From a bacterium (lineage in GTDB: Bacteria > Patescibacteriota > Minisyncoccia > UBA6257 > 02-FULL-45-10c), in the NCBI GenBank assembly GCA_021786945.1, contig JAJYMK010000003.1, positions 37,105 through 101,104 on the forward strand: a stretch of 64,000 nt of DNA, read 5' to 3'. A program made the position numbers and the translations under genes. Positions 1 through 40,043 of the stretch are shown in pieces (positions within the stretch are counted from its first letter, which is position 1; every line of letters starts with the position of its first letter). Below the pieces are notes generated by a model, which made no database searches, was not told where the DNA came from, and saw only the letters and a list, made by a program, of their open reading frames with translations.

Positions 1-1205
<1,205 letters not shown>

Positions 1206-24918: not shown

Positions 24919-24934
24919 TTCGTTTAATTAAGTA

Positions 24935-24962: not shown

Positions 24963-25166
24963 TTAAGGGGTTTGCGTACTTGTTTATAAGCAGTAAGGCC
25001 ACTATGAAAAGTACAAATGAAAGAACTACTGATTCCGCCGGATGATTTTGGACGAAATTCATTTTTTAACCCTCCTTTTTTATTATTGGGAACTAAAAAT
25101 ATAGTAACTTTTGAATTATTTTTTGTCAAAAAAATCCCCCCGTCATAAAAAGACGAGGGGATTATT

Positions 25167-25829: not shown

Positions 25830-25902
25830 ACCCCCTCCTTTTTAAAGAACTCTATCTGTTTTTATATTAAAGCGGGGATAGCCCAATCGTCAAACCCATT
25901 TT

Positions 25903-26613
25903 TTATTTTAAACCCAAACTTCCCAAAAAGGCTTTTTTCTCGTTATTTTCTATATTTCTTTTTTCCCCTGGTTTTAAATCGCCTAGTCTTATATCCATTA
26001 TCCTTTTTCTTTTCAATTTTTCTACGGTAAGCCTGAGAGCCGCTAACATGCGTCTTATTTGATGAGTTTTGCCCTCGGTTAAAACTATATTCATCTTATG
26101 GTCACCAATAATATTTACTGTTTTGGCCGTAAGTTTTTCTCCTTCGGTAATTATTCCGGCTTCAAGAACTTTTTCTGCTCTATTTGGTATTTTTTCTCTT
26201 ACTATCACTTCGTATTCTTTTTCATGTTCGAATCTTGGACTTAAAATTCTCTCGGTTATGCGACCATCGTTGGTTAAAATAATTAGACCCTCGGATTCCT
26301 TATCTAATCTGCCAATTGGAAAAATACCAGGAATATTTAAAATATCTTCAATCGATCTTTCCCCGTGTCTAGGAGAATGGGTGACTATACCTCTGGGTTT
26401 GTAATAAGCCAGATAAATTAATTTTTTTACATTGCCCTTTTGAAGGACTTTAATATCATCAGTTTCCGAAACTTTATCACCGAGCACAGCCTTTCTCCCG
26501 TTTATAAATACTAAGCCAGAGCTGATAAGCTCATCCGCTTCGCGTCTGGTAGCTACACTTTTAAGAGCTAAATATCTATTTATCCTTATTGGGTATATTA
26601 TTTCTTCAGTCAT
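25903..26613 (-). CDS. Pseudouridine synthase, RsuA/RluB family (S4 domain plus catalytic domain)
   Basis: S4-like N-terminus (RINRYLA...) and catalytic GRLDKESEGLIILTNDG. Confidence 0.85.
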   Translation of the reverse strand: MTEEIIYPIRINRYLALKSVATRREADELISSGLVFINGRKAVLGDKVSETDDIKVLQKGNVKKLIYLAYYKPRGIVTHSPRHGERSIEDILNIPGIFPIGRLDKESEGLIILTNDGRITERILSPRFEHEKEYEVIVREKIPNRAEKVLEAGIITEGEKLTAKTVNIIGDHKMNIVLTEGKTHQIRRMLAALRLTVEKLKRKRIMDIRLGDLKPGEKRNIENNEKKAFLGSLGLK

Positions 26614-26630
26614 AGTTCTTTAAGAATATA

Positions 26631-27140
26631 TTAAATTTGCCTACTATCATAGGCCCAATGCAAAACAGCCTGCCTTTGTTTAGCTCTGCATAATAAATCT
26701 TTGGATTTACAATTATTTTTTAGTTGTGCAATGTGTCGTTTTATAGCGCGCCATCTTTTGATCTGCCTGTTATCTTCATTGATAATTCTTCTGCCCATGT
26801 AATATCGGCAATACCACTGGAACCATCCCCGAGGATCTTCCTTATAAATCCAACCTTTCTTTTTCCAGACCGAGAGGGGTTGGCTGGCATTTACTTTAAA
26901 AAAATTAAGATTTGGATCATGTTTTTCGTGGCAAAGCTTGGCTTTTTTGAACCAGCTTTTTGGGAATTCTTTTTTACAGTCCGTCATATATTTTCCGCCA
27001 AAAATTCCTATTTCCAGCATTTGTTTTGGGGTTAGCTCAGGTTTAAATTTTGGATCAAAATTTTTTCCGGATGGTTCGGATAGGGCATAGCTATAATTTT
27101 TCTGCATTAAGTCGCTTACAGTTATGATTTTATTTGGCAT
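26631..27140 (-). CDS. Basic Trp/Cys-rich protein of unknown function
   Basis: Distinctive GWFQWYCRYYMGRR...DNRQIKRW segment. Confidence 0.4.
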   Translation of the reverse strand: MPNKIITVSDLMQKNYSYALSEPSGKNFDPKFKPELTPKQMLEIGIFGGKYMTDCKKEFPKSWFKKAKLCHEKHDPNLNFFKVNASQPLSVWKKKGWIYKEDPRGWFQWYCRYYMGRRIINEDNRQIKRWRAIKRHIAQLKNNCKSKDLLCRAKQRQAVLHWAYDSRQI

Positions 27141-27798
27141 TTATCTTTTTATTTTTGATAAATTTTATCAAGAATACAATGCCGTAGATAACTATGATTA
27201 TTATTAATATTCCTATACCAAGAAAAGCGCCAAGTTTGTTTTGAAATACCGAGTACCATGGTTTTTGAAAAAACACAGTTTTAATTTTATAAAGCTCGCT
27301 AAACATTTTGGGCATTTGTATTAAGGGAAAACTTTCTTTTTCCCCGACAACAAAAACATATTCTCCTTTATTCCCGGGATTAAAAACTGAAATCGTATAT
27401 TGTCCGGCGGGTAATTCTTTTTTAAATTCCGGACCCATCCAGTACCAATCTCCCCCGAATTCTTCATACCAATGTGTCCAGGTATAATTGTTTAAGCCGT
27501 CCAATTTTTTTATTTCAATTCCGTTTTCATTTGTTATTGAAGCAAATAGATTATTTTGCGGATTACCCACATCCGGAGTTAAGAGCTGTATATATAATTG
27601 AAAATCCGAAGCTGAATCTATTGAAAAATTTACCGGTTGCCCATCCAAAAATCCATAAAAAGCCTGAGAAATTTCTGGATTTATAACCGTGATTTCTTTG
27701 GCTTTATCTATGAAGTTTGGCTGGTGAGCTTCCGCTGGGCAGTAAAACATTAAAAACAATGAAAGGGTAGCCAATAAGATTATTTGTATTTTTTTCAT
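27130..27798 (-). CDS. Signal-peptide protein with C-terminal TM anchor
   Basis: N-terminal signal MKKIQIILLATLSLFLMFYCPAEA and C-terminal GILIIIIVIYGIVFLI. Confidence 0.5.
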   Translation of the reverse strand: MKKIQIILLATLSLFLMFYCPAEAHQPNFIDKAKEITVINPEISQAFYGFLDGQPVNFSIDSASDFQLYIQLLTPDVGNPQNNLFASITNENGIEIKKLDGLNNYTWTHWYEEFGGDWYWMGPEFKKELPAGQYTISVFNPGNKGEYVFVVGEKESFPLIQMPKMFSELYKIKTVFFQKPWYSVFQNKLGAFLGIGILIIIIVIYGIVFLIKFIKNKKINAK

Positions 27799-27858
27799 AA
27801 TATAAATTATAACAAAAAAACAACCTGTTTTTATCGAGCTGTTTTTTTAAAAAAATAA

Positions 27859-28224
27859 CTAGCACTTTTCATTTAACCATTCTTCGGCGGATTCTATTGA
27901 TTCAAAAAATTCTACATCTGGTTTAAATTCAGTAGCTATTTTTACAAATGCTTTAACCACCGGATTTTTTATTACAAAAGCCGTTGGGCCCAATCTCTTG
28001 TCTTTTAGAAATTCCTGATAAATTTTTATACCCTTGTAATCAGAAGTACCAGATAGAAGCATATCAACTATTCCGCATACTTTCTTATTTTGGTATTTAT
28101 CCAGTAATTTATTAGCGGTATTTACAAATTCTTTAGCTACGTTTTCGTCACCGTCACCGATTATCGTTGCCAACATTATCATTCCCTCATCCTTTTCACT
28201 TCTTATTGTTATTGTATGTTTCAT
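27859..28224 (-). CDS. Small cytoplasmic protein, possibly STAS-like
   Basis: Weak STAS-like C-terminus (EFFESIESAEEWL). Confidence 0.3.
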   Translation of the reverse strand: MKHTITIRSEKDEGMIMLATIIGDGDENVAKEFVNTANKLLDKYQNKKVCGIVDMLLSGTSDYKGIKIYQEFLKDKRLGPTAFVIKNPVVKAFVKIATEFKPDVEFFESIESAEEWLNEKC

Positions 28225-28264
28225 TTTTGTTATATAGCTATATTATACAGTAAAAAATAATATT

Positions 28265-28555
28265 TTATTTAGGTAATTTACCAAATCTTTTTTCTGTATA
28301 AATTATTCTCCACCAATATCGTCCGGCAAAAAAACCCCATACAATTCCGAATATTAAAAAGCTTATTAAGAAAACGAGGGTAGGGGGATAGCCGCTGTAC
28401 CAGATTATATTTTTTTCGGAATGCAGCAATTTTTGCAATACCAGTACTTGTGCAAAAAACAATACAAAATAGTTTATGAGTAATCCAAATATAGATGCGG
28501 CAGCTAGATAAACAATTCGTTTTATTTTCAATGAGCTTTTAGGTTGTATTTGCAT
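28265..28555 (-). CDS. Small membrane protein (3 TM)
   Basis: Hydrophobic profile only. Confidence 0.4.
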   Translation of the reverse strand: MQIQPKSSLKIKRIVYLAAASIFGLLINYFVLFFAQVLVLQKLLHSEKNIIWYSGYPPTLVFLISFLIFGIVWGFFAGRYWWRIIYTEKRFGKLPK

Positions 28556-28632
28556 ATAATTATTATATTAAATTTTTGATATTTATTGTAAGCATTGTTT
28601 TCCCGCGGATGATATAATTAATAATAAGGATT

Positions 28633-30030
28633 ATGAATAATTTTTTTTATAAGAAGATATATTTATTGTTCGGATTAATTATTTTACTGTTTTCTTCGGC
28701 TTCTCTTTCCTATGCCGCCGAATCCAAAATAGTAAAGGTGGGGGCTTTTGATAATTATCCTGTTATTTTTAAAGATTCCGATGGGGTTATTAAGGGTTTT
28801 TATCCGGATCTTTTGGCTGACATCGGAAAAAAAGAAAATATTGATTTTGAATATATTTTTGGCACTTGGAATGATGGTTTAGATCGTATTAAATCCGGAG
28901 AAATTGACATGCTGACTAGCGTGGCATATACCGATGAACGCGCATCGTATATGGATTATTGCAAAAATCCAATTTTAACTGTTTGGGGGGAGTTGTATGC
29001 GTTGCCCTCTTCTAATATTAAGGGGGTTTTAGATGTTGCCGGTAAAAATATTGGAGTTTTGACGGGTGATATTAATTACAAAAATTTTCAGACCCTCGTT
29101 TCTCAATTTAATATTGAAGTAAGATTTTCCGAATTTTCAACTTACGATGAAGTTTTTAATGCCGTTGTTAATAATAAAGTTGATGCCGGTGTTGTTGGCG
29201 TTACTTTTGGCATGGCTAACGAGATCAAATATGGATTGGAATCGACGGGGGTGGTATTTAACCCATTAAATTTATATTTTTCGGTTGCTAAGGGTAAAAA
29301 TCAGGCTTTATTAAAAATTTTGGATAGCTATATTTTGGAATGGAAACAACAAAATAATTCAATTTATGATCAAGCCGAACAAAAATGGCTTAGGGGTTTA
29401 CCAAAAGAATTGCCCGTTATCCCGGATTGGATAGTTGAGATTTTAGTTGCTTTAGGCGTCCTAGTTTTTATTTTATTAATTTTTATTTTTTTGTTGAATT
29501 TTAGGGTTAGACGGGTAACTAAAAAAATAAAAGAAGAAGAAAAAAGATTGGAAGAGAGTGAATGGAAAAATAAAAATATTATTGAGAATTCTAAGGATAT
29601 GATATTTATGATAGGAGCTGATTATAAATATCTAACCGTCAATAAGGCTTTAGCTGATAGTATTAAAAAAATCCCCCAAGATATTATTGGTAAGTCTATG
29701 TTTGATATTTTTCCCGAAGAAACATATTCTGCTTTTTTGGAAAACTTAAAAAAGGTTTTTGAAACAGGAATTGGTTTGTCCGTTGAAGAAAAAGTTATGG
29801 TTGAGAATAAATATGTATTTATAAGTTCAAAATTGGATCCAGTAAAGGATGTAAATGGAAAGGTGGTTGCTGTGGCCGGAATCGTGAGGGATATATCGGA
29901 TAGCAAAAAGAAAGAAGAAGAATTAGAAAGAATGAATAGGTTTATGGTAGCAAGGGAATTAAGGATGAAGGAATTAAAAAATAAAATTACTAAAATGGAA
30001 GATGGAAATTCGGCTGAAAAAAATAATTAA
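28633..30030 (+). CDS. Periplasmic solute-binding (SBP family 3)-TM-PAS sensor protein with no transmitter domain
   Basis: Signal peptide, ~230-aa SBP_bac_3-like domain, TM (ILVALGVLVFILLIFIFLL), a PAS domain, and a C-terminal coiled coil ending LERMNRFMVARELRMKELKNKI. Confidence 0.7.
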   Translation: MNNFFYKKIYLLFGLIILLFSSASLSYAAESKIVKVGAFDNYPVIFKDSDGVIKGFYPDLLADIGKKENIDFEYIFGTWNDGLDRIKSGEIDMLTSVAYTDERASYMDYCKNPILTVWGELYALPSSNIKGVLDVAGKNIGVLTGDINYKNFQTLVSQFNIEVRFSEFSTYDEVFNAVVNNKVDAGVVGVTFGMANEIKYGLESTGVVFNPLNLYFSVAKGKNQALLKILDSYILEWKQQNNSIYDQAEQKWLRGLPKELPVIPDWIVEILVALGVLVFILLIFIFLLNFRVRRVTKKIKEEEKRLEESEWKNKNIIENSKDMIFMIGADYKYLTVNKALADSIKKIPQDIIGKSMFDIFPEETYSAFLENLKKVFETGIGLSVEEKVMVENKYVFISSKLDPVKDVNGKVVAVAGIVRDISDSKKKEEELERMNRFMVARELRMKELKNKITKMEDGNSAEKNN

Positions 30031-30061
30031 AATAATTTAAAATTAATAAAAAACTAAATTA

Positions 30062-30496
30062 ATGCATAAAAAAACTTTAAAAGAATTAGCTAAGTTTGCA
30101 TCGGGACTTATAGCCGCTGATTTTTTATGTGGTTTATGGGTATATTTTAGCGTTATTCCGCCTATTTCATTTTTAGGCATTGTATTTACCAAACAGAATA
30201 TTATTTTGTGGATGGCCTTCGATGTTATTATTTTTTTGTTTTTGGTTCATTATGCTTGGAGAGTAGGAGATAGAGAGAGAACCAGTAAAGAAAAAATTTT
30301 TCACAATATAGCCGGTACCATATTTGCTTTGGTGGCGATACTGCATTTAAGCAGACTATTATTCGGATGGAGATTTATTATTGGATCTTGGTTAGTTCCT
30401 TATTGGCTTAATGGTTTAGGTGTCGTTATAACAATCTTTTTGGCTTATTTAAGTTTTCATATCGGCACGGGCAGAGAAAATAATCAATCTTTATAA
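30062..30496 (+). CDS. Membrane protein (4 TM), unknown
   Basis: Hydrophobic profile only. Confidence 0.4.
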   Translation: MHKKTLKELAKFASGLIAADFLCGLWVYFSVIPPISFLGIVFTKQNIILWMAFDVIIFLFLVHYAWRVGDRERTSKEKIFHNIAGTIFALVAILHLSRLLFGWRFIIGSWLVPYWLNGLGVVITIFLAYLSFHIGTGRENNQSL

Positions 30497-30574
30497 AACA
30501 TGGGTTGTTTTTAATGCCTTAACAATTATTTTAATGGCTTTTGCGTTTAGATAAGTTAGTTTTTTGTAATAATA

Positions 30575-30602
30575 AAAAACCGCCTATATGGGCGGTTTTA
30601 TT
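30575..30602. terminator. Bidirectional terminator (aaaaaaccgcc-tatatg-ggcggtttta)
   Basis: GC stem with A/T runs between convergent genes. Confidence 0.7.
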
Positions 30603-30612
30603 ATTAAATTTT

Positions 30613-32061
30613 TCAGCGGTTAATATTCGCAAAATCTATATAGCCGCGGTTAACATCGGTGTAAATTAATTTAACCTTAAGAATATCTCCAACGTCTAAA
30701 CCGGTTTCTCCTTGAGCTAGCAATCCCTCAACGTGTGGATGTAGTATGCGGACGAAGGTTCCGTGTGTGGTTACGCCGGTTACCACCGCATTAAATATTT
30801 CTCCTATACGATGGCTCATCACCATTGCGGCAATACGTTTCGACATATCCCTTTCAACTTTATTCGCTAAATTTTCTTTTAATGTACAGTTATTTGCTAT
30901 AGTAACAAGCTCTTCGTCGGAGTAGGGATTTTTATCACCGTTAAGCATTGCTTTTATAATTCGTTGGGTAACAATATCCGCAAAGCGGCGATTGGGTGCG
31001 GTAGAGTGGGTATAGTCCTGGACAGCGAGTCCAAAATGACCTTGTTTATTATCACTTCCGCGTTCCATAATATATTCCCCAGGACCAATTAATTTTATTA
31101 TTGCCAAGGATAAATCGGCAAAGTGATCGGGATCAATAGTTTTTCGACTAATAAGAAACTCATTAAGTTCCTTACTTGACGGTTCGCTTGGTAGTTTTGT
31201 TTTGTAATTTGCAGCAAGCTGAACAATTCTATCCCATCGTTTTGGTGTTTTTACTACACGTTTTAATATTGATAATTTTTCAAGTTTTTTACCAACAACT
31301 TCATTTGCCGTAATCATAAAATCTTCTATTAGATCTGTAGCGCGATTTTTTTCTTGGTTGGCGATGTCTGCGATTTTTGTGCCGGAAAAAATTGGATGAA
31401 TTTGTATGGATTCAAGATACAAACCTCCGTGCTCATGCCGCTTATTTTTAAGTATTTGAGCTATCTTATCTTGCAATTTAAGTTGCTCCTGCAATTCTTT
31501 CGATTCGGAAATTTTTATAGGGGCAAGAGAGCTACTTTCGAGCCATTTTCCTACGGAGTTATAAGTAAGCTGTGCATGATTTCTGACAATAGCTCTGTAT
31601 ATATCGCTAGAAGATAGGGATCCGTCTGATTTAACCGTAAATTCTATTACAATGCTTGGTCTGTTCATATTTTCCGCCAACGAAGTTTTATCGTTGGAAA
31701 GTTCATTTGGCAACATTGGAAAAGTGCGTATGCCTGCATACACCGTTGTAGTTTCTTCTGAGGCGTAAATATCGATGGGTGAATTTTTTGGAACGAGCGC
31801 ATCAACATCGGCTATGGCTATCATAATTTTAACCATCCCGTTTGTTAGGGGTTCGGCCACTTCAATTTGGTCGATATCCAAAGAATCGTCATTATCAATT
31901 GAAGACCATGGCAGATGTCGCAAATCTCTGACACCTTTTTCGAAAGTTAAGGGCTGTGTGTGTTTTTTTATATCTGATAATTGTTCCAGGGCTTGGGGTG
32001 GAAAATCTGGAATAAATCCGCGCTCCAGCATAATTTGCCTGGCTATTACTTTTAAGTCCAT
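30613..32061 (-). CDS. RNase II/R family 3'-5' exoribonuclease (RNB plus C-terminal S1 domain; compact)
   Basis: RNB motifs (HFGLAVQDYTHSTAPNRRFADIVTQR) and a C-terminal S1-like fold. Confidence 0.8.
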   Translation of the reverse strand: MDLKVIARQIMLERGFIPDFPPQALEQLSDIKKHTQPLTFEKGVRDLRHLPWSSIDNDDSLDIDQIEVAEPLTNGMVKIMIAIADVDALVPKNSPIDIYASEETTTVYAGIRTFPMLPNELSNDKTSLAENMNRPSIVIEFTVKSDGSLSSSDIYRAIVRNHAQLTYNSVGKWLESSSLAPIKISESKELQEQLKLQDKIAQILKNKRHEHGGLYLESIQIHPIFSGTKIADIANQEKNRATDLIEDFMITANEVVGKKLEKLSILKRVVKTPKRWDRIVQLAANYKTKLPSEPSSKELNEFLISRKTIDPDHFADLSLAIIKLIGPGEYIMERGSDNKQGHFGLAVQDYTHSTAPNRRFADIVTQRIIKAMLNGDKNPYSDEELVTIANNCTLKENLANKVERDMSKRIAAMVMSHRIGEIFNAVVTGVTTHGTFVRILHPHVEGLLAQGETGLDVGDILKVKLIYTDVNRGYIDFANINR

Positions 32062-32191
32062 ATTGTAAATTTATTTATTATAAATACTTATTTGTACCTA
32101 TATTTGTATTTTATCTAAAAAATAAATTAAATAAAAATATAATTTTTATTACTTTGTTTTATTGAGTCATAGAACTGATAATTCTTAAGCT

Positions 32192-32878
32192 TTGTTCGTT
32201 TTTATAATATATAATAAAAACATGTTTAAGCAGCCATCGAATAATAGGGATTGGGAAAAAGATCAAAAAATTTTAGCGCATGCAATGATCGAGAGCGGCA
32301 AAATTTCTTTGTTTAATATCCGTAATTTTAAATACCGTTCCGAATTCGATTACGAAGTTGATTATTGTAGCCAAGTTTTTGAGATAGATAGGTTAATTGA
32401 TGTTAGTTTGGGCATTGTCGCTTTCTCTAAGAATCCTTTATTAGCTCATATTCTAACTACATTTGAATTTGCGGACGGTAAATCGGTGGTTTTTTCAATT
32501 GAAGTCCGCAAGCAGAAAGACCAGAAATTCATCGCCTGGCAGACAGCATTTAATAATTATGAGCTTATGTATGTCGTTGCGACGAGATCGGATGTAATTG
32601 ATTTACGCAATAAGCATCGAAAAAATGAACGTGTTGTCGAGTACAAACTAAATTTAGATCAAGACCAAAAATGCCGATTGTTCTTAGATTTTTGTATTCG
32701 GTTAAATCAACTTAAAGGTGGTCCGGAATTTTTTAATCTTTTCTACAATAGTTGCAGCAGTAACGCGATAAATCATTTAAATAAAGTATTGGATTGGAAA
32801 GTGCCATGGTTTTATAAATATTTAGCTCCTGGTTATTTAGATAAGGCATTAGGAAATCGAAAAATAATAAATCAATAG
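32192..32878 (+). CDS. DUF4105-like protein
   Basis: C-terminal motif FYNSCSSNAINHL resembles the DUF4105 Y.x.NNC(T/S) signature. Confidence 0.4.
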   Translation: MFVFIIYNKNMFKQPSNNRDWEKDQKILAHAMIESGKISLFNIRNFKYRSEFDYEVDYCSQVFEIDRLIDVSLGIVAFSKNPLLAHILTTFEFADGKSVVFSIEVRKQKDQKFIAWQTAFNNYELMYVVATRSDVIDLRNKHRKNERVVEYKLNLDQDQKCRLFLDFCIRLNQLKGGPEFFNLFYNSCSSNAINHLNKVLDWKVPWFYKYLAPGYLDKALGNRKIINQ

Positions 32879-32996
32879 TGTTAACGAGGCGAGCTATTTC
32901 GTGCTGAGCCCTAAACCGTCAATCCTAGTAAGTGTTTATTTTTTTAATTGACACGTTTCGCGTGCCCAATTATTAAAATTTTCTATTAAATAAATT

Positions 32997-33611
32997 TTAA
33001 TAATTAAAATTGGTGCGATAGCCGACAAATGATCCGTCGGGATTCAGGTTGACTGTAAGCCCATAATTTCCGGTCTGGCAATGATTAGTGCAATAATAAT
33101 GTTCAATGTAATAACTCAGGGTTCCGCCGCCGTTCGGATTGAGAAAATCACGGTAATATAAACAGATGTCGGCTTTTAGATGCTCATAAGTGCTGACTTT
33201 TTGCTCTTGCATCAATTTGTCTATTAATTCGGTCAATTGATAGTTATTATCTGGAGAATAATTTTTTATTTTACCGTAAAACGCGCCGTTATTAAAAGTC
33301 TCCAGAGAAGCGATCTCAAAGATCGTTTGCGGAAGTTTTTCTTCCGGTGTAATGACATTTCGTTCAACGGTGAATTTTTCCATACATTTCTTACCGCCTA
33401 GCGTTCCCACTACGCCCTGGGATTCCGCATCTCCGGTTTTAGCGGTGCTTGGCGGATAATTATTCTTATCCACAGAAAGATTTTGATTACCGGAATTATT
33501 TGCGGACGATGTCGGTTTAGTGATATTTTTTAGGATAAACCAATTTACGGCTATTGCTGTAATAATTAAAACAATGACTAATAACAATGGATACAAAATT
33601 TTTTTGTTCAT
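32997..33611 (-). CDS. N-terminally anchored or secreted protein, unknown
   Basis: N-terminal TM (ILYPLLLVIVLIITAIAVNWFIL) and a Cys-containing C-terminal domain. Confidence 0.45.
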   Translation of the reverse strand: MNKKILYPLLLVIVLIITAIAVNWFILKNITKPTSSANNSGNQNLSVDKNNYPPSTAKTGDAESQGVVGTLGGKKCMEKFTVERNVITPEEKLPQTIFEIASLETFNNGAFYGKIKNYSPDNNYQLTELIDKLMQEQKVSTYEHLKADICLYYRDFLNPNGGGTLSYYIEHYYCTNHCQTGNYGLTVNLNPDGSFVGYRTNFNY

Positions 33612-33717
33612 ATTTTAATTATACTACTAAAAAAGCTCTAACTATATTTCTGGATATAAAAATAACCATCATAAAAATAGGTTATTTTTCAGAGCTCGCC
33701 AAGTCGTGTTGGAGAAA

Positions 33718-34563
33718 TTAAATATTTTGGTCGTATTTTTCTTTGAATTCTTTAAAACTCATAGAAACAGTTTTACCGTTTACAAAAGCAACTCCCGGGC
33801 CAAGATATGTATTTTTACCGTCTCTGATATTTTTTTGTTTTTCCCTGAAATTAGTATGGGCCGTTGGCTCTTTTTCCGGTTTAGTATTTTCAATTCCTGG
33901 GATTTTATCAGCAAAATCATCCCAAATATTTTTCCACTCTTCTAGAATTACCGCTTCTTCTTTTAATGGATGAAGTGTAATGGTCGTTCTATCATTGGAT
34001 TCTTTAATAGATATTTCTATTTTTTTATTTTTAAAATATTCAATAATTGATTCTGGTATTTTAACTTCTTTATTATAAACATCTACGAATTGATCCCTAA
34101 TTGAAGACTCTTTAAAACCCGATTGAAATGTATTGTATCCCTTTTTTCTTAGCATAAATACAGCGTTACTAACCTGGGATTCTAATTCATCTTTATATGC
34201 GCCGGCATTAAGTTCTTCTTCGTCGGCAAGGGGATTCTCCACGAGCCTTTGCTCACGTCTTTTAAAAGAATCTTCTCTTTCGCTTAAGCGTTGAAATTTT
34301 TCTATAAATAAAGTTTTATTTTTAATTGCACTATCCCATTCCTCAATATTTTTTTTGATTTCAGCGCTATTTAAATCTTTATAAAGAAAAGACATTTCTT
34401 CTTTTAACTTGTTAAAGTCTGAGTAGTGACTGTAAATATAATCTTTAATCGGACTTTTTTCCGGTAAATATCTATTGGAAGCATCGAGCATCATATTCTT
34501 AATTTTCTCAACATCGTTGTTTGTTACCCCTTCTTTTTGTTGTTTTTGTTCAAATTTTTCCAT
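33718..34563 (-). CDS. Charged hypothetical protein
   Basis: Long ORF with native AT-rich codon usage and no recognizable motif. Confidence 0.45.
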   Translation of the reverse strand: MEKFEQKQQKEGVTNNDVEKIKNMMLDASNRYLPEKSPIKDYIYSHYSDFNKLKEEMSFLYKDLNSAEIKKNIEEWDSAIKNKTLFIEKFQRLSEREDSFKRREQRLVENPLADEEELNAGAYKDELESQVSNAVFMLRKKGYNTFQSGFKESSIRDQFVDVYNKEVKIPESIIEYFKNKKIEISIKESNDRTTITLHPLKEEAVILEEWKNIWDDFADKIPGIENTKPEKEPTAHTNFREKQKNIRDGKNTYLGPGVAFVNGKTVSMSFKEFKEKYDQNI

Positions 34564-34716
34564 ATAAAAATTATATCAATTATCTAAATTTAAAAAAGAC
34601 CCCGAAATTAAATTTCGAGGCATTTCCAGAGACTCACGACTGGGCTCGCTGTCTGGGACGATGTTGGAACCCTTTTTGGGGTAAAAGAGAGGGTGGGCGA
34701 GTAAGTTTAGGTTATA

Positions 34717-34745
34717 TTGACAAATATTGCCTAGTATGTTAATAT
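34717..34745 (+). promoter_or_regulatory. Canonical sigma70 promoter: TTGACA, 17 nt, TAATAT
   Basis: -35 at 34717-34722 and -10 at 34740-34745. A 13-bp perfect palindrome GTGTCTaAGACAC lies at 34764-34776. An AGGAG SD precedes the ATG at 34819. Confidence 0.55.
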
Positions 34746-34818
34746 ATAACAATTGTAGGAACGGTGTCTAAGACACTGAATCTTATGATAGTACCTTGTT
34801 TTTACTTTAGGAGTATTT

Positions 34819-35391
34819 ATGGGAGTGATTAAGGGGATTACGGATATTGTCTTTCGCTGCCCGGTCAACTACGGCTTAGGTGTCGATAAGTTGATTAAGA
34901 AGGGGAAATATGACTTGGTGAACAACAGGTGGGTACATAACGAGATTACCGAGAATAACTTCCCAACAAAGAGAGGTGGTCAGAAAGAAGTGGAAATGAA
35001 AATTTTTCACTTCAGGAAAAAGAGGACTCTGGAGGAATACAGTAAAGCAAAAGACAGAGAGGGCTTCTTATCCCAATACCTTTTTAAAGGTGAGTTTTGG
35101 GAAAAAGACGTGACCTTGAAAGAAGTCAAAGCAGAAATGGCTAATCAGGGCTACCGCCCCGCTAAGCTATGTGAGCTTTTGGCTTTTGAGGATGCCTACC
35201 CCGAATACTTGTGGAGTACGGGGCTCTTGATAGCCCTGGGCTCTGCCTGTCGGAATTCGGACGGATGTCGACAATTCCCATATCTCTCAGAAAGTGTCTT
35301 TGAGAGAAAGAAGTGGCTGCATCTCAGCCTGGTCAAAAAAGGGAAGGATGGCTTGGGTTGGACCTGCTACTTCTTAGCCGTTCGCAAATAG
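34819..35391 (+). CDS. Hypothetical protein in a compositionally foreign (~45% GC) cassette
   Basis: GC and codon usage (ctg, ggc, ccc codons) differ from the rest of the window. It has its own promoter, SD and terminator. Confidence 0.6.
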   Translation: MGVIKGITDIVFRCPVNYGLGVDKLIKKGKYDLVNNRWVHNEITENNFPTKRGGQKEVEMKIFHFRKKRTLEEYSKAKDREGFLSQYLFKGEFWEKDVTLKEVKAEMANQGYRPAKLCELLAFEDAYPEYLWSTGLLIALGSACRNSDGCRQFPYLSESVFERKKWLHLSLVKKGKDGLGWTCYFLAVRK

Positions 35392-35442
35392 CCACTCCCG
35401 TGGCACCCACTTCAATAGGTCTCCCAGACCTAAAGAAGTCCG

Positions 35443-35492
35443 CCCCGTGTTCAGGATTAATATTCTGAATGCGGGGCATTTTTATTTCCACA
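35443..35492 (+). terminator. Rho-independent terminator of the foreign cassette
   Basis: gccccg...(ttcag/ctgaa inner stem)...cggggc followed by ATTTTTATTT. Confidence 0.55.
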
Positions 35493-35572
35493 CAAAAAAA
35501 CAACTTTTCCTCAAAAGACCCATATACAAATCATAAGAAACTTTGCAGATCGGATAATGTCAGAATCAGTTT

Positions 35573-36202
35573 TTATGTTAGGTTTTTTACAACACCTTCT
35601 ATATTTGGATAATATTTATTGAAAATTGTATCTACCCCATTAGTTTTTATAGGAATATTTTGCATAGTTGCTACATCGGGAATTATTCTGGAAAGAACTA
35701 GATCTACAATTCTTTCTTTTACCCAATGGTCAACATTATATTTATCAATAAGTTTTTGTATGGATAGGTGCACCATTTCATGAATCAAGGCCTTGGAAAC
35801 CCCTATGCCGAATCTACCTTGAATATTAACGATTATTTTATTAGGAAGATTATAACTTCCAGCACTTCCATATTTTGTTAGTTCTATTAAGTAAAAATCT
35901 TCCGGAACCAAAGAAGCCTCTTCAAAATATTGTTCTAGTTTTGGCGAAAATTTAACCCATTGTTTTTTGACTATTTCTTCTACGTCGTTAAAGTCTTTTT
36001 GATTGTATTCTTTTTCAGCTTTATTTAATAAAATATCTATGGACTTGTTTCCATCAATATCTGTTAATTTAATATTTTCTGGTAGCTTTATCCAATTCGA
36101 ATAACCGTTTTTAATATACCAATCGGACTTATCCAATGTATGCTTAATACGCTCCTTTTCACATTCAGGTGAATATTTAAATTTTAAAGCAATATTTTTC
36201 AT
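35573..36202 (-). CDS. Putative zinc-dependent peptidase-like protein (HExxH)
   Basis: LIHEMVHLSIQ is a HExxH motif. Native AT-rich composition. Confidence 0.4.
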   Translation of the reverse strand: MKNIALKFKYSPECEKERIKHTLDKSDWYIKNGYSNWIKLPENIKLTDIDGNKSIDILLNKAEKEYNQKDFNDVEEIVKKQWVKFSPKLEQYFEEASLVPEDFYLIELTKYGSAGSYNLPNKIIVNIQGRFGIGVSKALIHEMVHLSIQKLIDKYNVDHWVKERIVDLVLSRIIPDVATMQNIPIKTNGVDTIFNKYYPNIEGVVKNLT

Positions 36203-36260
36203 GCATTAATTATATCAAAATATCCCCATTTAAGAAGCTATTTACCATACAGTATATTAG

Positions 36261-36332
36261 CTCCGCGACCAGGACTCGAACCTGGAACCATCGCCTTAAC
36301 AGGGCGCCGCTCTACCATTGAGCTATCGCGGA
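36261..36332 (-). tRNA. tRNA-Asn (anticodon GTT); CCA not encoded
   Basis: Minus-strand sequence TCCGCGA-TA-GCTC-AATGGTA-GAGC-G-GCGCC-CTGTTAA-GGCGA-TGGTT-CCAGG-TTCGAGT-CCTGG-TCGCGGA-G forms a cloverleaf with U33 and A37. Confidence 0.85.
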
Positions 36333-36454
36333 ATATTTAGATAAAAATAATATAACAAATTATATAAAAAAAATAAACCCCTTTGGGTTAATTGACGGCG
36401 TTAACAAAGTTACAGTTTTTGTTATAATTATTAAATAAACCAATCATAAAATTT

Positions 36455-36871
36455 ATGAAAAAATTTGTTTGGACTCAGGAATATAGCGTGGGCATAGAAT
36501 CTATTGATGAACAGCATCAGCATTTTTTCGATATAGCAAATAAGATTATGGAGATGTCGGATTCTAATTCTTCGGAAGGACGTGATCTTTTTGAGTCTTT
36601 GGAGGAGTTGGGTAATTATGCATTTTATCACTTAGACACCGAAGAAAATTATTTTGATGAATATAATTTCGAGGGCAAAGAAGAGCATGTTAATGCACAT
36701 AATTTATTTAGAAAGAAAGTTAATGAATTTATGGACAGAGCTAGAAAAGGGGAGGATATTAAAAAAATTATGAATGAAGCAGCTTCGTATTCAGGAGAGT
36801 GGCTTTTACAACATATTTTGATAATGGATAAGAAATATACCAAATTCTTGGTTGAACGCGGAGTAAAATAA
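36455..36871 (+). CDS. Bacteriohemerythrin
   Basis: Hemerythrin HHE cation-binding pattern: WTQEYSVGIESIDEQHQHFFD ... H..E. ... HI. 138 aa. Confidence 0.8.
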   Translation: MKKFVWTQEYSVGIESIDEQHQHFFDIANKIMEMSDSNSSEGRDLFESLEELGNYAFYHLDTEENYFDEYNFEGKEEHVNAHNLFRKKVNEFMDRARKGEDIKKIMNEAASYSGEWLLQHILIMDKKYTKFLVERGVK

Positions 36872-36880
36872 TTTCTTACT

Positions 36881-37900
36881 ATGAGCTTAGTTATTTTTAT
36901 GGCTATTTTGGTGGTAGCGCTTGCGCTGTTTTTCAATTTTACAAACGGCTTTAATGATTCTGCCAGCCAAGTTGCTACTATAATTTTTTCAAGAACCTTA
37001 CAGCCAGAGATAGCGCTTTTTATTGCGGCTGTAGCTAATTTTAGCGGTGCTTATTTTTTAGGCACAGCGGTTGCACAAACAATAGGTTCGGGAATCGTTG
37101 ACCCGAGTCTTATGAAGGAAGGGGTATCCGGCGTTTTAGTTATTTTAGCCGCACTAATCGGTGCAATTTTATGGAATTTGGTTACTTGGTATTTTGGAAT
37201 CCCGTCTTCCTCTTCACATGCTTTAATCGGAGGTTTGGTAGGCTCTTTTTTGTTTAGCTGGGGGCCGAATCCGATAAATTGGACTAAGGTTTTTATGATT
37301 ATTACCGTTATGATAATTTCACCTATCATAGGGTTTATAATTACTTATATTTTTACTCAGCTAACTTTAATTTTTAGTCAATGGTCTAGTCCTAAAATAA
37401 ATAAAGTTTTTAAAAATTTACAATTTTTTTCTTTAATTACCCAAGCCCTTGCTCACGGTACAAATGATGCTCAGAAAGCTATGGGTGTTATTGTTTTTGG
37501 TTTTGTAATTCTGGGTTTATATACGCCTCCTCAAGGCCAATATATTATTCCTACGTGGATTATAGTTTCTTGTGCTTTAGCAATTTCTTTTGGAACTATG
37601 GTGGGTGGAAAGCGGATTATAAAAAAATTGGGTTCCGGGCTTTACAAGATCAGGCCAATTCATAGCTTTGCTTCGCAAACAGCCTCTACTTTAATAATTT
37701 ATGCGGCTTCCATTTTTGGTTTTCCGGTTTCTACAACACAGATTATTTCTTCTTCGGTAATGGGCGCCGGCGCGGCTTTTCGTCCAAAAATGATACGTTG
37801 GAAAATAGCCCAGGATATGGTGGTGGTTTGGTTTATTACGATTCCTATCAGTGGAACTATTGCAGGGCTATCATTTTTGCTTTTAAATAAGCTTTTTTAA
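36881..37900 (+). CDS. Inorganic phosphate transporter, PiT family
   Basis: Paired PHO4 signatures GFNDSASQVATII and GTNDAQKAMGVI. ~10 TM segments. Confidence 0.85.
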   Translation: MSLVIFMAILVVALALFFNFTNGFNDSASQVATIIFSRTLQPEIALFIAAVANFSGAYFLGTAVAQTIGSGIVDPSLMKEGVSGVLVILAALIGAILWNLVTWYFGIPSSSSHALIGGLVGSFLFSWGPNPINWTKVFMIITVMIISPIIGFIITYIFTQLTLIFSQWSSPKINKVFKNLQFFSLITQALAHGTNDAQKAMGVIVFGFVILGLYTPPQGQYIIPTWIIVSCALAISFGTMVGGKRIIKKLGSGLYKIRPIHSFASQTASTLIIYAASIFGFPVSTTQIISSSVMGAGAAFRPKMIRWKIAQDMVVVWFITIPISGTIAGLSFLLLNKLF

Positions 37901-37945
37901 GAGTATTATTAATATACGTTTTCGGTAAAATCAAAATACAAAAAT

Positions 37946-38551
37946 ATGAATTTCAATTTTTTCAAAAAAACAGATTTTTATAAATTACTGCTTGATCAGG
38001 CGGAAAAAACGCGGGAGGGTGTGGCGGCTTTGCTTGAATTTATAAATAATCCTACTCAGGAAAACGGAAACGATGTCAGCCGATTGGAGGGGGAGGCAGA
38101 TGAAATCAGGCGAGTCTTGATTGATGATTTAAACAGGACATTTGTTACCCCAATAGACCGAGAAGATATTTTTTCTTTATCTAGATCAATTGATGATGTA
38201 TTGGACTATGCCGAAACAACGGTTGAAGAAATGCTTGTTTTGGATATAAAGCCCGACAACAATATAAAACAGCTCGTTGAAATTCTTCTTGAAGCTTCAA
38301 ACAGTGTTGCTTTGGCTGTAAAAAATATAAAAGAGCATCCGGGTGTATGCATCGAGCATGTTATTAAAGCTAGAAAGTCCGAGCATAAAATAGAAAAGCT
38401 TTACAGGCTAGCCTTAGCTGAGCTTTTTAAAACAAATGATGTTATAAAAATCCTTAAAACAAGAGAGGTTTATAGACATCTTTCCAATGCCGCGGATAGA
38501 GTGGTGGCCGCCGCTAACGTGATCAGCGATATTTTGGTAAAAAATGCCTAA
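37946..38551 (+). CDS. DUF47 (PhoU-like) regulator partnered with PiT
   Basis: Helical ~200-aa protein in the conserved PiT-DUF47 gene pair. Confidence 0.7.
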   Translation: MNFNFFKKTDFYKLLLDQAEKTREGVAALLEFINNPTQENGNDVSRLEGEADEIRRVLIDDLNRTFVTPIDREDIFSLSRSIDDVLDYAETTVEEMLVLDIKPDNNIKQLVEILLEASNSVALAVKNIKEHPGVCIEHVIKARKSEHKIEKLYRLALAELFKTNDVIKILKTREVYRHLSNAADRVVAAANVISDILVKNA

Positions 38552-40043
38552 GTCTTTTTTTTCCGAGAAGGTTTGTGCTGAAATTGATCTGCATATGCTT
38601 ACCAGGCCTCAGGCCGAAGTGGAACTTTATGATTTTTTGGATAAATCCTATTCTTTAGGATTTCATAAAGTAAGAATAATTACTGGCAAGGGATTGAATT
38701 CCGAAAACGGTCAAAGCATTTTAAAGCCATTTGTTCAGGAAATTCTCAGAAAAGAAAAATTAAAGTTTAGGGATGCAAAAATGAATGAGGGCGGCGCCGG
38801 AGCAATTGATGTTTGGCTTTTTCAGGCTAAAGCCTTCACATTGATAGAACTCCTGATAGTCATAGGTATATTAGCAGTCTTAGCAACAACCGTGCTTCTA
38901 GTCATAAACCCAGCTCAGTTAGTTAAGCAATCCAGAGATGCCAATAGAATCACGGAGCTGACATCTATCAACCAAGCTCTTCTTTTGTATCAATCCTTCG
39001 GAGGTAGCACTAGCATGGGTACTCATGGAGATGTCTATGTGTCTTTACCCAGCGCCCAAGCTGATTGTTCCGACCTCGGTCTTCCAGCCCTCAGTAGTGG
39101 TAGCTATCATTGCTCCACCTCTGCAAACTACAGAAATATAGACGGTACAGGCTGGATTCCGGTTAATTTAGCTTCTGTCCAATCTTCTGCCGGAACTCTT
39201 TTTTCCAGTCTTCCTATAGATCCAATCAATACCGTAGCCAATGGTTACTACTACACCTATATCCCTGGTTCCTGGGCTCTTTCTGCTACCATGGAATCAG
39301 AAAAATACCTTGCTGCTAATGCTACCAATGACGGAGGACAATCAGCTACCAGATTCGAAAAAGGAAATGATTTGAGTTTGAATGCAAATTTACCTGGGTT
39401 TGTGCCTACGTGTGGAGCAAGCGATACCCTTGGTTTGGTTAGCTATTGGAAATTCAATGAATCTTCAGGAACATCAGCGGCCGATTTTTATGGCTCAAAT
39501 CCAGGCACGTTAACAGCGGGGTTGTCTTCGAGGGTTGCCGGCAAACTTGGCAATGCTTTAAATTTTATTGGTCAAAATGATTATATGAGTTTAGCGAGTA
39601 TGACCGGATTTCCTTCGGGATCTAATCCTTACACTATTGAGTTATGGATAAAACCAAATTTATTTGATAATAGAGTGATAATTAGCTGGGGAATTGGTTC
39701 TGCAAATCAAACCAATGCCATAAAAATAAATAATAATACTATTGTTAATTATTGGTGGGCAAATGATTTAACCGCTTCCGCAACCATAACTGATTCCTGG
39801 TATTATATAGTTGCTACTTTTGATGGTACTTCTAGAAAAATTTATTCGAATGGAAATGTGGTGGGCTCGGATAATCCGGGAAGTCCTAATATCAATTCAT
39901 CTAATTTTCGTTTAGGTCAGGGTTCTGGCAGTTTATTTTCTGGTTTAATTGATGAACTCGCTATTTATAATCAAGCCCTTTCGGGTACTGATATTCAAAA
40001 GCACTATCAAAGAATTAATAGCGGGAATAGTTATTGTAATTAG
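38544..40043 (+). CDS. In-frame fusion: Smr (MutS2-type nuclease) domain, then the type IV pilin core, then a LamG lectin domain
   Basis: Residues 1-93 are a complete Smr domain: IDLHMLT...VRIITGKGLNS...GGAGAIDVWLF. No stop follows it. Next comes QAKA|FTLIELLIVIGILAVLATTVLLVINPAQ, a pilin hydrophobic helix with Ala, not Gly, at -1. The pilin core (GTGWIPVN...LPIDP...ESEKY) follows, then a LamG_3 domain (LVSYWKFNESSGTS...GLIDELAIYNQALSGTDI). The pilin-core DNA (~38820-39370) is ~45% GC. Confidence 0.7.
   Translation: MPKSFFSEKVCAEIDLHMLTRPQAEVELYDFLDKSYSLGFHKVRIITGKGLNSENGQSILKPFVQEILRKEKLKFRDAKMNEGGAGAIDVWLFQAKAFTLIELLIVIGILAVLATTVLLVINPAQLVKQSRDANRITELTSINQALLLYQSFGGSTSMGTHGDVYVSLPSAQADCSDLGLPALSSGSYHCSTSANYRNIDGTGWIPVNLASVQSSAGTLFSSLPIDPINTVANGYYYTYIPGSWALSATMESEKYLAANATNDGGQSATRFEKGNDLSLNANLPGFVPTCGASDTLGLVSYWKFNESSGTSAADFYGSNPGTLTAGLSSRVAGKLGNALNFIGQNDYMSLASMTGFPSGSNPYTIELWIKPNLFDNRVIISWGIGSANQTNAIKINNNTIVNYWWANDLTASATITDSWYYIVATFDGTSRKIYSNGNVVGSDNPGSPNINSSNFRLGQGSGSLFSGLIDELAIYNQALSGTDIQKHYQRINSGNSYCN

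What the first reader, a model, noticed from the sequence alone, without database searches (positions are those of the whole stretch)
34590..35500. ~0.9-kb high-GC cassette with textbook promoter, palindromic operator, SD and terminator, ~0.8 kb from the tRNA-Asn 3' end
GC is ~45% against ~33% in the flanks, and codon usage is distinct. The cassette has TTGACA-17-TAATAT, a 13-bp perfect palindrome GTGTCTaAGACAC just downstream of the -10, a strong AGGAG SD and a terminator. Native genes here mostly lack an SD. The encoded 190-aa protein has no recognisable motif. It looks like horizontally acquired DNA, or a chimeric assembly join, within a tRNA-proximal variable region that also holds an HExxH protein.
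Basis: seen in the sequence. Interest (0 to 1): 0.5.

Follow-up and report, generated by a model that had tools for sequence, protein, structure and literature searches.

The report
Solitary diverged DGR variable-protein gene
The GC-rich "cassette" is a lone, strongly diverged copy of a gene family that ultrasmall (Patescibacteria) bacteria normally hypermutate with a diversity-generating retroelement; its odd composition and textbook signals are family hallmarks, not proof of recent gene transfer or misassembly.

Summary
ORF 34819-35391 has the highest GC (45.7%) and GC3 (56.5%, z=4.8) of 58 ORFs, plus a TTGACA-17-TAATAT promoter, a 13-bp palindrome, an AGGAG SD and a terminator.

The 190-aa protein matches no curated family. 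A profile search places it in a large unannotated Patescibacteria family (>7,000 50%-identity clusters). In 32 of 80 fetched loci that gene is followed by a template repeat, Avd and a reverse transcriptase, and 25 VR/TR pairs show adenine-specific mismatches. The family is therefore a DGR variable protein, and the AlphaFold model has the expected C-type-lectin fold.

The window holds no RT, Avd or TR. Its copy is the most divergent of 69 aligned members: 39 private inserted residues, changed invariant VR scaffold residues, no N-terminal region, and no family 5'-UTR RNA motif. It is most likely a frozen orphan, or less likely a remote target of a DGR elsewhere in the 697-kb genome.

High GC (+9-10 points over flanks), a near-consensus promoter and a strong SD recur across the family, so they do not show recent HGT. 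Independent assemblies share the junctions, which excludes a chimera. No tRNA-derived att repeat exists. This is a new member of a known kind.

The parts
34599..34621 (-). Intrinsic-terminator-like hairpin on the minus strand (10-bp stem, T-run extending to ~34590). It sits between the cassette and the start of the 281-aa minus-strand gene (34563).
   Evidence: sequence
34654..34670 (-). 17-mer GTTCCAACATCGTCCCA inside the GC-rich spacer 34622-34716. The identical motif occurs three times in locus L024, each time between a gene and its terminator. Its function is unexplained.
34717..34745 (+). Sigma-70-type promoter TTGACA-17-TAATAT with TG extended -10. The same TTGACA-N17-TAnnnT promoter precedes most family members.
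34746..34818 (+). 73-nt 5' UTR. It holds a hairpin at 34752-34789 whose tip is the 13-bp palindrome 34764-34776. It does not contain the family's three-tier 5'-UTR RNA motif.
34809..34813 (+). Shine-Dalgarno core AGGAG, 5 nt upstream of the ATG.
34819..35391 (+). ORF of 190 aa (P0001). It is a C-type-lectin-fold protein and a divergent member of the Patescibacteria DGR variable-protein family.
35014..35100 (+). Lineage-specific 29-residue insertion (residues 66-94). It is absent from all 68 other aligned members and has low model confidence.
35242..35388 (+). Region homologous to the family's variable repeat (VR). It carries private indels, substitutions at scaffold positions that are invariant in active VRs, and the family-typical 3' end ...GCCGTTCGCAAA.
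35391..35439 (+). Two inverted repeats directly after the stop codon: 35391-35404 (5-bp stem, 4-nt loop) and 35409-35439 (12 pairs in two tiers, 5 + 7, with a 3-nt loop). They occupy the position of the hairpin/cruciform that follows DGR VRs.
   Evidence: DNA fold z=-7.1; PMC3240598
35442..35487 (+). Intrinsic terminator: 16-bp stem, 4-nt loop, then ATTTTTATTT.

Best explanation
The cassette is a complete, self-contained transcription unit: promoter, structured 5' UTR, SD, ORF, post-stop hairpins and terminator. It encodes a small C-type-lectin-fold ligand-binding protein.

The protein belongs to a large, unannotated Patescibacteria family. Typical members are the variable proteins of diversity-generating retroelements. 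Their last ~45 codons (VR) are rewritten from a nearby template repeat (TR) by an Avd/RT pair with adenine-specific mutagenesis.

The window copy is a solitary and heavily diverged member with no TR, Avd or RT within 64 kb. I infer that it is an orphaned target that is no longer diversified. It would be a binding protein frozen in one specificity but still expressed from the family's strong expression signals.

The GC and codon anomaly, the consensus promoter, the SD and the hairpins are inherited hallmarks of the family cassette rather than signs of a recent transfer.

Shown: family membership, the DGR nature of the family, the fold, the absence of DGR parts in the window, the divergence, and the family-wide character of the signals.
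Inferred: loss of diversification, expression, and a binding function.
For: Family membership
- A profile of the first hits retrieves 719 proteins and 7,358 50%-identity clusters with E<1e-3.
- The family HMM hits the window only at this ORF, with E=1.5e-45.

The family is a DGR target
- In L006 the homologue is followed by a TR, an Avd on the opposite strand and an RVT_1 RT.
- 32 of 80 GTDB loci have the same RT 0.9-1.3 kb downstream, with Avd between.
- 25 gene/repeat pairs have at least 80% of mismatches at TR adenines.

Fold
- The AF2 model has pLDDT 83 and pTM 0.80.

No DGR machinery in the window
- tblastn with the RT and Avd finds nothing. No A-biased repeat of the VR region exists.

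Divergence
- P0001 deviates at 11 of 44 conserved columns, against a median of 2. This is the highest of 69 members. It has 39 private inserted residues.
- Four scaffold residues that are invariant or nearly invariant in 22 active VRs are changed. There are also private indels in the VR. Three of 12 codons at AAY-templated positions end in A or G.
- It lacks the ~48 N-terminal profile positions and the family 5'-UTR motif.

No visible variation
- The 90% cluster has a single member sequence, found on 7 contigs from several assemblies. Neighbouring DNA differs by ~0.05% between samples.

Signals are family traits
- Family hits are on average 10 GC points above their own locus in 93% of 130 hits.
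- In intact cassettes the non-VR part of the gene is +10.9 points, the VR +21.5 and the TR +10.2, while Avd and RT are ~5 points below the flanks.
- Non-VR gene GC tracks host GC with r=0.52.
- 27 of 46 genes have a promoter within 1 mismatch of consensus, against 1.6% of random windows. 31 of 46 have an SD core of at least 5 nt.
Against: - Only 64 kb of a 697-kb contig was visible, so a DGR elsewhere cannot be excluded.
- In other MAGs, RT-less copies match the single TR of the genome mostly at adenines. Remote targets therefore exist in this family.
- The window copy keeps an intact ORF, the family-typical 3' end and strong post-stop inverted repeats. These are the features a target needs.
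- The identical sequences come from near-clonal populations, so lack of variation is weak evidence.
- Expression and ligand binding were not tested.
Confidence: 0.6

Rival explanations
1. It is an active remote DGR target. A DGR (TR, Avd, RT) elsewhere in the 697-kb genome rewrites 35242-35388 in trans, and that TR has co-diverged to carry the same indels.
For: - Remote copies exist in the family. In JAFGMD01, MNUV01 and JAUYKI01 the RT-less paralogues match the genome's single TR, with 59-74% of mismatches at adenines.
- The window gene keeps the ...GCCGTTCGCAAA end and two strong inverted repeats right after the stop, as DGR targets require (PMC3240598).
- The ORF and its expression signals are intact.
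Against: - No TR, RT or Avd lies within 34 kb upstream or 29 kb downstream, or in the ~2-4 kb added at each end.
- The VR-equivalent has indels and scaffold changes not seen in any of 22 active VR/TR pairs.
- No sequence variants appear among 7 contigs or within the 90% cluster.
Confidence: 0.3
2. It is a recently and horizontally inserted mobile cassette or genomic islet next to tRNA-Asn. The unit would have been dropped between the HExxH gene and the 281-aa gene.
For: - The SD has no partner in a host whose 16S lacks the anti-SD, and only 3-4 of 58 ORFs have an SD.
- GC3 is an outlier.
- A 9-bp direct repeat AAAAGACCC flanks the unit at 34594 and 35513.
- The region is not syntenic in the nearest relatives.
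- The 17-mer is shared with a DGR island carrying KilA-N and RhuM/Fic genes in L024.
Against: - The composition, promoter and SD are family-wide and scale with host GC.
- The nearest homologue is 36% identical, so no donor is visible and the branch is long.
- There is no copy of the tRNA 3' end: the longest exact matches elsewhere in the window are 11 nt.
- No integrase was found among the neighbours tested.
- A 9-mer repeat between two ~130-nt flanks is expected by chance in roughly 1 of 10 cases (my estimate).
- tRNA proximity is not enriched in 60 family loci.
Confidence: 0.15
3. It is an assembly chimera joining DNA of a higher-GC organism into this contig.
For: Only the composition jump.
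Against: - Two further independent assemblies from different runs agree with the window. L001 is 100% identical over 24819-38873, covering both junctions, and L002 over 34618-36288, covering the right junction.
- The protein is recorded on 7 contigs, including two of 0.2-1 Mb.
- The composition jump is typical of the gene family in situ.
Confidence: 0.01
4. It is a repressor-controlled gene in which the 13-bp palindrome is a DNA operator.
For: A perfect palindrome lies 19 nt after the -10. Only 2 of the 46 such palindromes in the window have G/C-rich arms.
Against: - The palindrome is absent from all other family loci.
- No regulator gene is adjacent.
- It extends, with G-U pairs, into a 16-bp RNA hairpin, and other family members carry structured 5' UTRs. 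A transcript-level element is therefore the simpler reading.
Confidence: 0.1

Closest known systems
DGR variable (target) proteins of Candidate Phyla Radiation / Patescibacteria (DGR clade 2 of Roux et al. 2021, PMC8144416; first surveyed by Paul et al. 2017, cited from my own knowledge)
   Same: - Sequence homology to members with verified VR/TR/Avd/RT cassettes.
- A small protein with no Pfam domain, as that paper describes for CPR targets.
- A C-terminal VR-homologous segment ending ...FLAVRK.
- Inverted repeats after the stop codon.
   Different: - No TR, Avd or RT within 64 kb.
- The most divergent of the 69 aligned members.
- Private insertions of 5, 29, 1 and 4 residues.
- Scaffold residues of the VR are changed.
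- The N-terminal region and the family 5'-UTR motif are missing.
Structurally characterised C-type-lectin-fold DGR variable proteins: TvpA of Treponema denticola (PDB 2Y3C), Mtd of Bordetella phage BPP-1 (PMC2408619)
   Different: - No detectable sequence similarity.
- A much smaller protein of 190 aa.
- The post-VR hairpins have CCC and TCCC loops, not the GRNA loops of phage DGRs (PMC3240598).
- Diversification is not demonstrated here.
Non-DGR CLec/FGE-like domains (formylglycine-generating enzyme paralogue 1y4j, Legionella Lcl C-terminal domain 8q4e, Bdellovibrio Bd2740 C-terminal domain 8oks)
   Different: No sequence relationship was found: no Pfam FGE-sulfatase or DUF1566 hit appears at E<=1.
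tRNA-linked genomic islands / integrative elements
   Same: The cassette lies 0.8 kb from a tRNA 3' end, is compositionally atypical and sits in a non-syntenic neighbourhood.
   Different: - No integrase.
- No duplicated tRNA 3' segment.
- Only one gene.
- The composition is explained by the gene family.

Membership tests
DGR variable protein (Patescibacteria family) | Sequence homology to proteins whose genes carry a verified VR | tested here: met
   The family HMM scores E=1.5e-45 on the ORF. Homologues P0004 and others have VR/TR pairs.
DGR variable protein (Patescibacteria family) | C-type-lectin fold with the variable segment at the C-terminus | tested here: met
DGR variable protein (Patescibacteria family) | Cognate template repeat whose differences from the VR fall at TR adenines | tested here: not met
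   In the 64-kb window the best repeat of the VR region is 63/116 identical with no A bias.
DGR variable protein (Patescibacteria family) | DGR reverse transcriptase and Avd in the same locus or genome | tested here: not met
   tblastn with the L006 RT and Avd gives no hit below E=1 in the window or in the short extensions. The genome-wide status is not testable with these tools.
DGR variable protein (Patescibacteria family) | Inverted repeat (hairpin/cruciform) within 4-34 bp downstream of the VR (PMC3240598) | tested here: met
   Hairpins lie at 35391-35404 and 35409-35439, with DNA fold z=-7.1. RT-linked family members have analogous hairpins. Loop sequences differ from the phage GRNA type.
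DGR variable protein (Patescibacteria family) | Sequence hypervariability of the VR between individuals or samples | tested here: inconclusive
   The protein is identical on 7 contigs, and the 90% cluster has a single member. The populations are near-clonal, and reads were not available.
DGR variable protein (Patescibacteria family) | Family-typical three-tier 5'-UTR hairpin (model R1, defined here) | tested here: not met
   There are 33 hits, 32 of them directly upstream of the annotated family gene in the other loci. None falls in the window's UTR.
tRNA-integrated genomic island | Direct repeat of the tRNA 3' end marking the distal island border | tested here: not met
   The longest exact matches elsewhere in the window are 11 nt. 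Nothing lies near 30-36 kb above chance.
tRNA-integrated genomic island | Integrase or recombinase gene next to the tRNA | tested here: not met
   The neighbours between 32.2 and 36.2 kb have no integrase domains in Pfam. Called genes of L001 show none within +/-10 kb.
Assembly chimera | Junctions unsupported by independent data | tested here: not met
   L001 is 100% identical across both junctions and L002 across the right junction, from other sequencing runs.

The most novel reading that the evidence does not exclude
The unit promoter-UTR-VP gene-hairpins-terminator is an autonomous, transferable 'target module' of Patescibacteria DGRs. It would move between genomes independently of the RT.

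Here it would have landed in the 3' region of the HExxH gene, leaving the 9-bp repeat AAAAGACCC at 34594 and 35513. The host ribosome lacks an anti-SD and cannot read its SD. After losing contact with any TR, the copy would have been domesticated as a fixed binding protein. The family-wide GC excess would then be a signature carried by the module itself.
Probability: 0.15. Interest if true: 0.5.

Novelty: new member of a known kind. Interest (0 to 1): 0.3.

Why it matters
For this window, the result replaces an 'alien cassette or misassembly' flag with a concrete identity. The gene is an orphaned, diverged DGR variable-protein gene in an ultrasmall bacterium.

More generally it is a caution. 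In Patescibacteria, DGR target genes are systematically ~9-10 GC points richer than their genomes. They also carry near-consensus promoters and SDs, so composition-based HGT or contamination screens will flag them repeatedly.

If the copy really is frozen, it is an example of how a hypervariable binding protein becomes a fixed one. The family-level by-products may interest people working on DGRs and on CPR gene regulation. These are a specific 5'-UTR RNA motif, the opposite GC offsets of target and RT genes, and the SD in a host without an anti-SD.

Tried and rejected
- **Curated libraries.** Pfam, PHROGs, PADLOC and NCBIfam gave no hit for the ORF. The PDB sequence search found nothing relevant.
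- **Rfam.** It found only the 16S rRNA and the tRNA in the window, and nothing credible in 34500-35600 at E<=10.
- **Minus-strand small RNA (34735 to 34590).** Its fold is not better than shuffles (z=-1.45), so it was not pursued.
- **Upstream GC-rich spacer as a relic of a family N-terminus, another VP or a TR.** The HMM against the six frames found nothing.
- **17-mer in viral contigs.** There were 42 exact hits. About 33 of them are one family of phage C5-methyltransferase genes sharing only a WDDVGTF peptide. tblastn shows no further homology, so this was rejected as coincidence.
- **Synteny or empty-site test.** I used PHO4 in metagenomes and RNase II in the protein database. The nearest relatives are too distant and non-syntenic.
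- **Neighbour genes (HExxH, 281-aa, 204-aa, Lnb_N, hemerythrin).** They never co-occur with family loci.
- **tRNA proximity as a family trait.** It is not enriched.
- **Adenine-specific depletion as the cause of the GC excess.** This was rejected because both A3 and T3 are reduced.
- **Extending the window.** Edge proteins gave only 2-4 kb of extra sequence and no RT.
- **Generic long-hairpin count.** It was invalid because N-runs were scored as pairs, and it was discarded in favour of the covariance model.

Full report
**1. Checking the observation**

The described features are all present.
- The stretch 34590-35500 is 44.0% GC, against 36.5% for the window and 25-33% in the adjacent 300-nt windows.
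- ORF 34819-35391 (190 aa) has the highest GC of 58 non-overlapping ORFs: 45.7%, z=2.8. It is a strong outlier at third codon positions: GC3 56.5% against 32.4 +/- 5.0, z=4.8.
- TTGACA-17-TAATAT, with a TG extension, lies at 34717-34745. Only five exact-TTGACA promoter-like sites exist on both strands of the window.
- The palindrome GTGTCTAAGACAC is at 34764-34776 and is unique in the window.
- AGGAG is at 34809-34813.
- A 16-bp-stem terminator is at 35442-35477.
- tRNA-Asn is at 36260-36332 on the minus strand.
- Only 3-4 of 58 ORFs have an SD core before their first start codon, so the remark that native genes mostly lack an SD is correct.

**2. Identifying the gene**

The protein hits nothing in Pfam, PHROGs, PADLOC or NCBIfam. 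A single-sequence search of 5.8 billion proteins found only four homologues, at 29-36% identity.

One of them, P0004 on contig L006, is followed by three elements:
- a ~120-nt repeat of its own 3' end, in which the repeat's adenines correspond to other bases in the gene;
- a bAvd gene on the opposite strand;
- an RVT_1 reverse transcriptase.

This is the anatomy of a diversity-generating retroelement (DGR).

A profile of the five sequences then retrieved 719 proteins and 7,358 50%-identity clusters with E<1e-3. All named hits are Patescibacteria 'hypothetical proteins' without Pfam domains.

Of 80 loci fetched from GTDB species representatives:
- 32 have an RT 55-66% identical to the L006 RT, 0.9-1.3 kb downstream, with Avd between on the other strand;
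- 25 gene/repeat pairs have at least 80% of their mismatches at adenines of the repeat.

The family is therefore a bona fide DGR variable-protein (VP) family. [quoted passage not shown]

**3. What is missing in the window, and how unusual the copy is**

No DGR machinery was found:
- tblastn with the RT and Avd finds nothing in the window.
- The best repeat of the VR-homologous region is at chance level, 63/116 identical with no adenine bias.
- The family HMM hits the window only at the ORF.
- About 2-4 kb beyond each window end also holds no RT.

The copy is the most divergent of the 69 aligned members:
- It deviates at 11 of 44 conserved columns, against a median of 2.
- It has 39 private inserted residues, at positions 33-37, 66-94, 132 and 172-175.
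- It lacks the ~48 N-terminal profile positions.

I mapped the copy column by column onto 22 verified VR/TR pairs:
- Four scaffold residues that non-adenine TR codons keep invariant or nearly invariant are changed. These are L->K, W->L, W->L and R->Y.
- The VR-equivalent has private indels, whereas VR length is conserved in active pairs.
- 3 of 12 codons at positions templated by AAY end in A or G. Adenine mutagenesis of AAY cannot produce that.

The protein is recorded identically on 7 contigs of several assemblies. Its 90% cluster has a single member. Neighbouring DNA of another sample differs by ~0.05%.

Some evidence points the other way:
- The ORF is intact.
- The family-typical 3' end (...GCCGTTCGCAAA) is kept.
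- Two inverted repeats follow the stop codon, at 35391-35404 and 35409-35439, with DNA fold z=-7.1. This is where DGR targets need a hairpin or cruciform (PMC3240598). RT-linked family members have analogous hairpins.
- In three MAGs with several copies, the RT-less copies match the genome's single TR with 59-74% of mismatches at adenines. Remote targets therefore exist in this family.

My reading is an orphaned, no-longer-diversified copy (about 0.6). An active remote target is less likely (about 0.3). The remaining ~630 kb of the genome could not be inspected.

**4. The 'foreign-looking' features are family traits**

- Across 130 family hits, the gene is on average 10 GC points above its own locus. 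It is above the locus in 93% of cases.
- In 22 intact cassettes the non-VR part of the gene is +10.9 points, the VR +21.5 and the TR +10.2. Avd and RT are ~5 points below the flanks.
- Non-VR gene GC tracks host GC with r=0.52 (p=9e-7) and an offset of +8.7 points. The window value (0.443) is what the regression predicts for a 36.4%-GC host (0.472 +/- 0.066).
- The excess is not adenine-specific: C3 and G3 are up, and both A3 and T3 are down.
- Among 46 family genes with a defined start, 27 have a TTGACA-N17-TAnnnT promoter with at most 1 mismatch within 260 nt. Only 1.6% of random windows in the same loci do. 31 of the 46 have an SD core of at least 5 nt.
- The promoter-to-ATG distance in the window (73 nt) falls within the family range of 48-190 nt.

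They are not evidence of recent acquisition.

The nearest homologue anywhere is 36% identical, so no donor is visible. A long independent history with an unameliorated GC excess argues for an intrinsic, family-level cause.

**5. HGT, island and chimera tests**

- Chimera is excluded. L001 (18-kb contig, another run) is 100% identical over 24819-38873, and L002 over 34618-36288.
- There is no copy of the tRNA-Asn 3' end in the window. The longest exact matches are 11 nt.
- No integrase is present among the neighbours.
- tRNA proximity is not enriched in 60 family loci.
- The nearest relatives obtainable are L087 (PHO4 73%) and L167 (RNase II 69%). They share none of the genes between RNase II and PHO4. 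The region is therefore variable at that evolutionary distance, but no empty site could be found.

Two weak points favour insertion at some time:
- A 9-bp direct repeat AAAAGACCC lies at 34594 and 35513. I estimate roughly a 1-in-10 chance for flanks of that size.
- The host 16S rRNA ends ...GTGGATCATTTTATTT, with no CCTCC anywhere near. The AGGAG SD therefore has no visible partner in this organism.

**6. The palindrome and the upstream spacer**

The palindrome lies inside the transcript. It extends, with G-U pairs, to a ~16-bp hairpin at 34752-34789 (z=-2.5). It is absent from all other family loci, and 46 such palindromes occur in the window, although only 2 have G/C-rich arms. I read it as an RNA 5'-UTR hairpin rather than an operator.

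The GC-rich spacer 34622-34716 contains, on the minus strand, the 17-mer GTTCCAACATCGTCCCA followed by a minus-strand terminator at 34599-34621. The identical 17-mer occurs three times in locus L024, each time between a gene and its terminator. The genes are the DGR RT, a KilA-N gene and a RhuM/Fic gene. Exact matches in viral contigs turned out to be a coincidental methyltransferase coding segment. This element remains unexplained.

**7. Family-level by-products**

Most family genes have long, structured 5' UTRs. A three-tier hairpin with two symmetric internal loops sits just upstream of the SD. 11 of its 16 pairs show compensatory changes in 14 sequences.

A covariance model of this hairpin (R1) finds 33 plus-strand sites in 1.19 Mb of family loci:
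- 32 of them lie directly upstream of the annotated VP gene.
- 19 are not in the training set.
- The only other match is a weak minus-strand hit (E=0.61) overlapping the L082 site.
- There is no site in the window.

Rfam has no match in eight such loci. The window gene thus also lacks the family's cis-RNA.

**8. Verdict**

The object is a new, degenerate member of a known kind: a DGR variable protein of Patescibacteria. It is most likely orphaned.

Interest is modest for the window itself (0.3). The family-level observations are the more reusable results. These are the GC offset, the expression module, the 5'-UTR motif, and the SD without an anti-SD.

Noticed in passing
L003 9131-9180, L061 235-284, L080 2407-2457, L022 9745-9794 and 29 further sites: A conserved three-tier hairpin RNA (~50 nt, two symmetric 2x2 internal loops) lies in the 5' UTR just upstream of the SD of DGR variable-protein genes. 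11 of its 16 pairs show compensatory changes. Covariance model R1 hits 33 plus-strand sites in 1.19 Mb, 32 of them directly upstream of the annotated family gene, and 19 are outside the training set. Eight such loci have no Rfam match. It is absent from the window's UTR. It is a candidate undescribed cis-regulatory RNA.
   Followed up: yes
L003 9076-9130, L009 4311-4363, L030 9752-9801, L062 9726-9779, L080, L082, L006: In the long-UTR class (146-190 nt) a second, very long hairpin (13-25 bp) has a conserved base (TAGCCnCAGC ... GCTGnGGCTA) and is preceded by an ACTTGC motif. 13 of its 14 pairs show compensatory changes.
   Followed up: partly
22 intact DGR cassettes among L006-L086; 80 genes: Within a single DGR cassette the target gene is GC-rich and the enzymes are GC-poor. 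Relative to the flanks, the non-VR part is +10.9 points, the VR +21.5 and the TR +10.2, but Avd is -5.2 and RT -4.8. The excess sits at third codon positions (C3 0.34 against 0.20 in RT) and is not adenine-specific. The cause is unknown.
   Followed up: partly
window 1190-1206 and 1207-1440: The 16S rRNA gene ends ...GTGGATCATTTTATTT. The canonical anti-SD CCTCC is absent and is not found downstream. This is consistent with only 3-4 of 58 ORFs having an SD. No 23S follows the 16S, and a response-regulator gene starts at 1443.
   Followed up: partly
window 34654-34670 (-); L024 12414, 13368, 14454 (+): An identical 17-mer, GTTCCAACATCGTCCCA, precedes an intrinsic terminator. In L024 it follows the DGR RT, a KilA-N gene and a RhuM/Fic gene. 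It occurs nowhere else in ~2 Mb of fetched loci. There is no conserved secondary structure. Its function is unknown.
   Followed up: partly
window 34594-34602 and 35513-35521: A 9-bp direct repeat, AAAAGACCC, flanks the whole unit. It could be a target-site duplication or chance, which I estimate at about 1 in 10.
   Followed up: no
window 30613-32061 (-): The RNase II (RNB) protein is 63-66% identical to proteins on Mb-size contigs of non-CPR bacteria (named Sulfotelmatobacter and Eisenbacteria). It is only 69% identical to the nearest Patescibacteria protein. Its GC is 0.39-0.43, above its surroundings. It may be an inter-phylum transfer.
   Followed up: no
L018, L028, L034, L047, L068, L080: Tandem arrays of two or three family genes occur without an adjacent RT. 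Some MAGs hold four dispersed copies but only one RT (JAUYKI01: L015, L032, L048, L064). In those MAGs the remote VRs match the single TR mostly at adenines.
   Followed up: partly
Downstream of the stop codon in RT-linked loci, e.g. L014 6209-6260, L076 7216-7260, L008 1013-1060: VRs are followed within ~5-15 nt by a bipartite hairpin rich in CTTGG and GGNCC repeats, ahead of the terminator. This is likely the target-recognition hairpin of this DGR clade. Its loops differ from the GRNA loops of phage DGRs.
   Followed up: partly
window 35573-36202 (-): The neighbouring HEMVH protein has a weak PADLOC match to candidate defence protein PDC-S49 (E=1.3e-4, residues 14-78) and no Pfam domain. It never co-occurs with family loci.
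   Followed up: no
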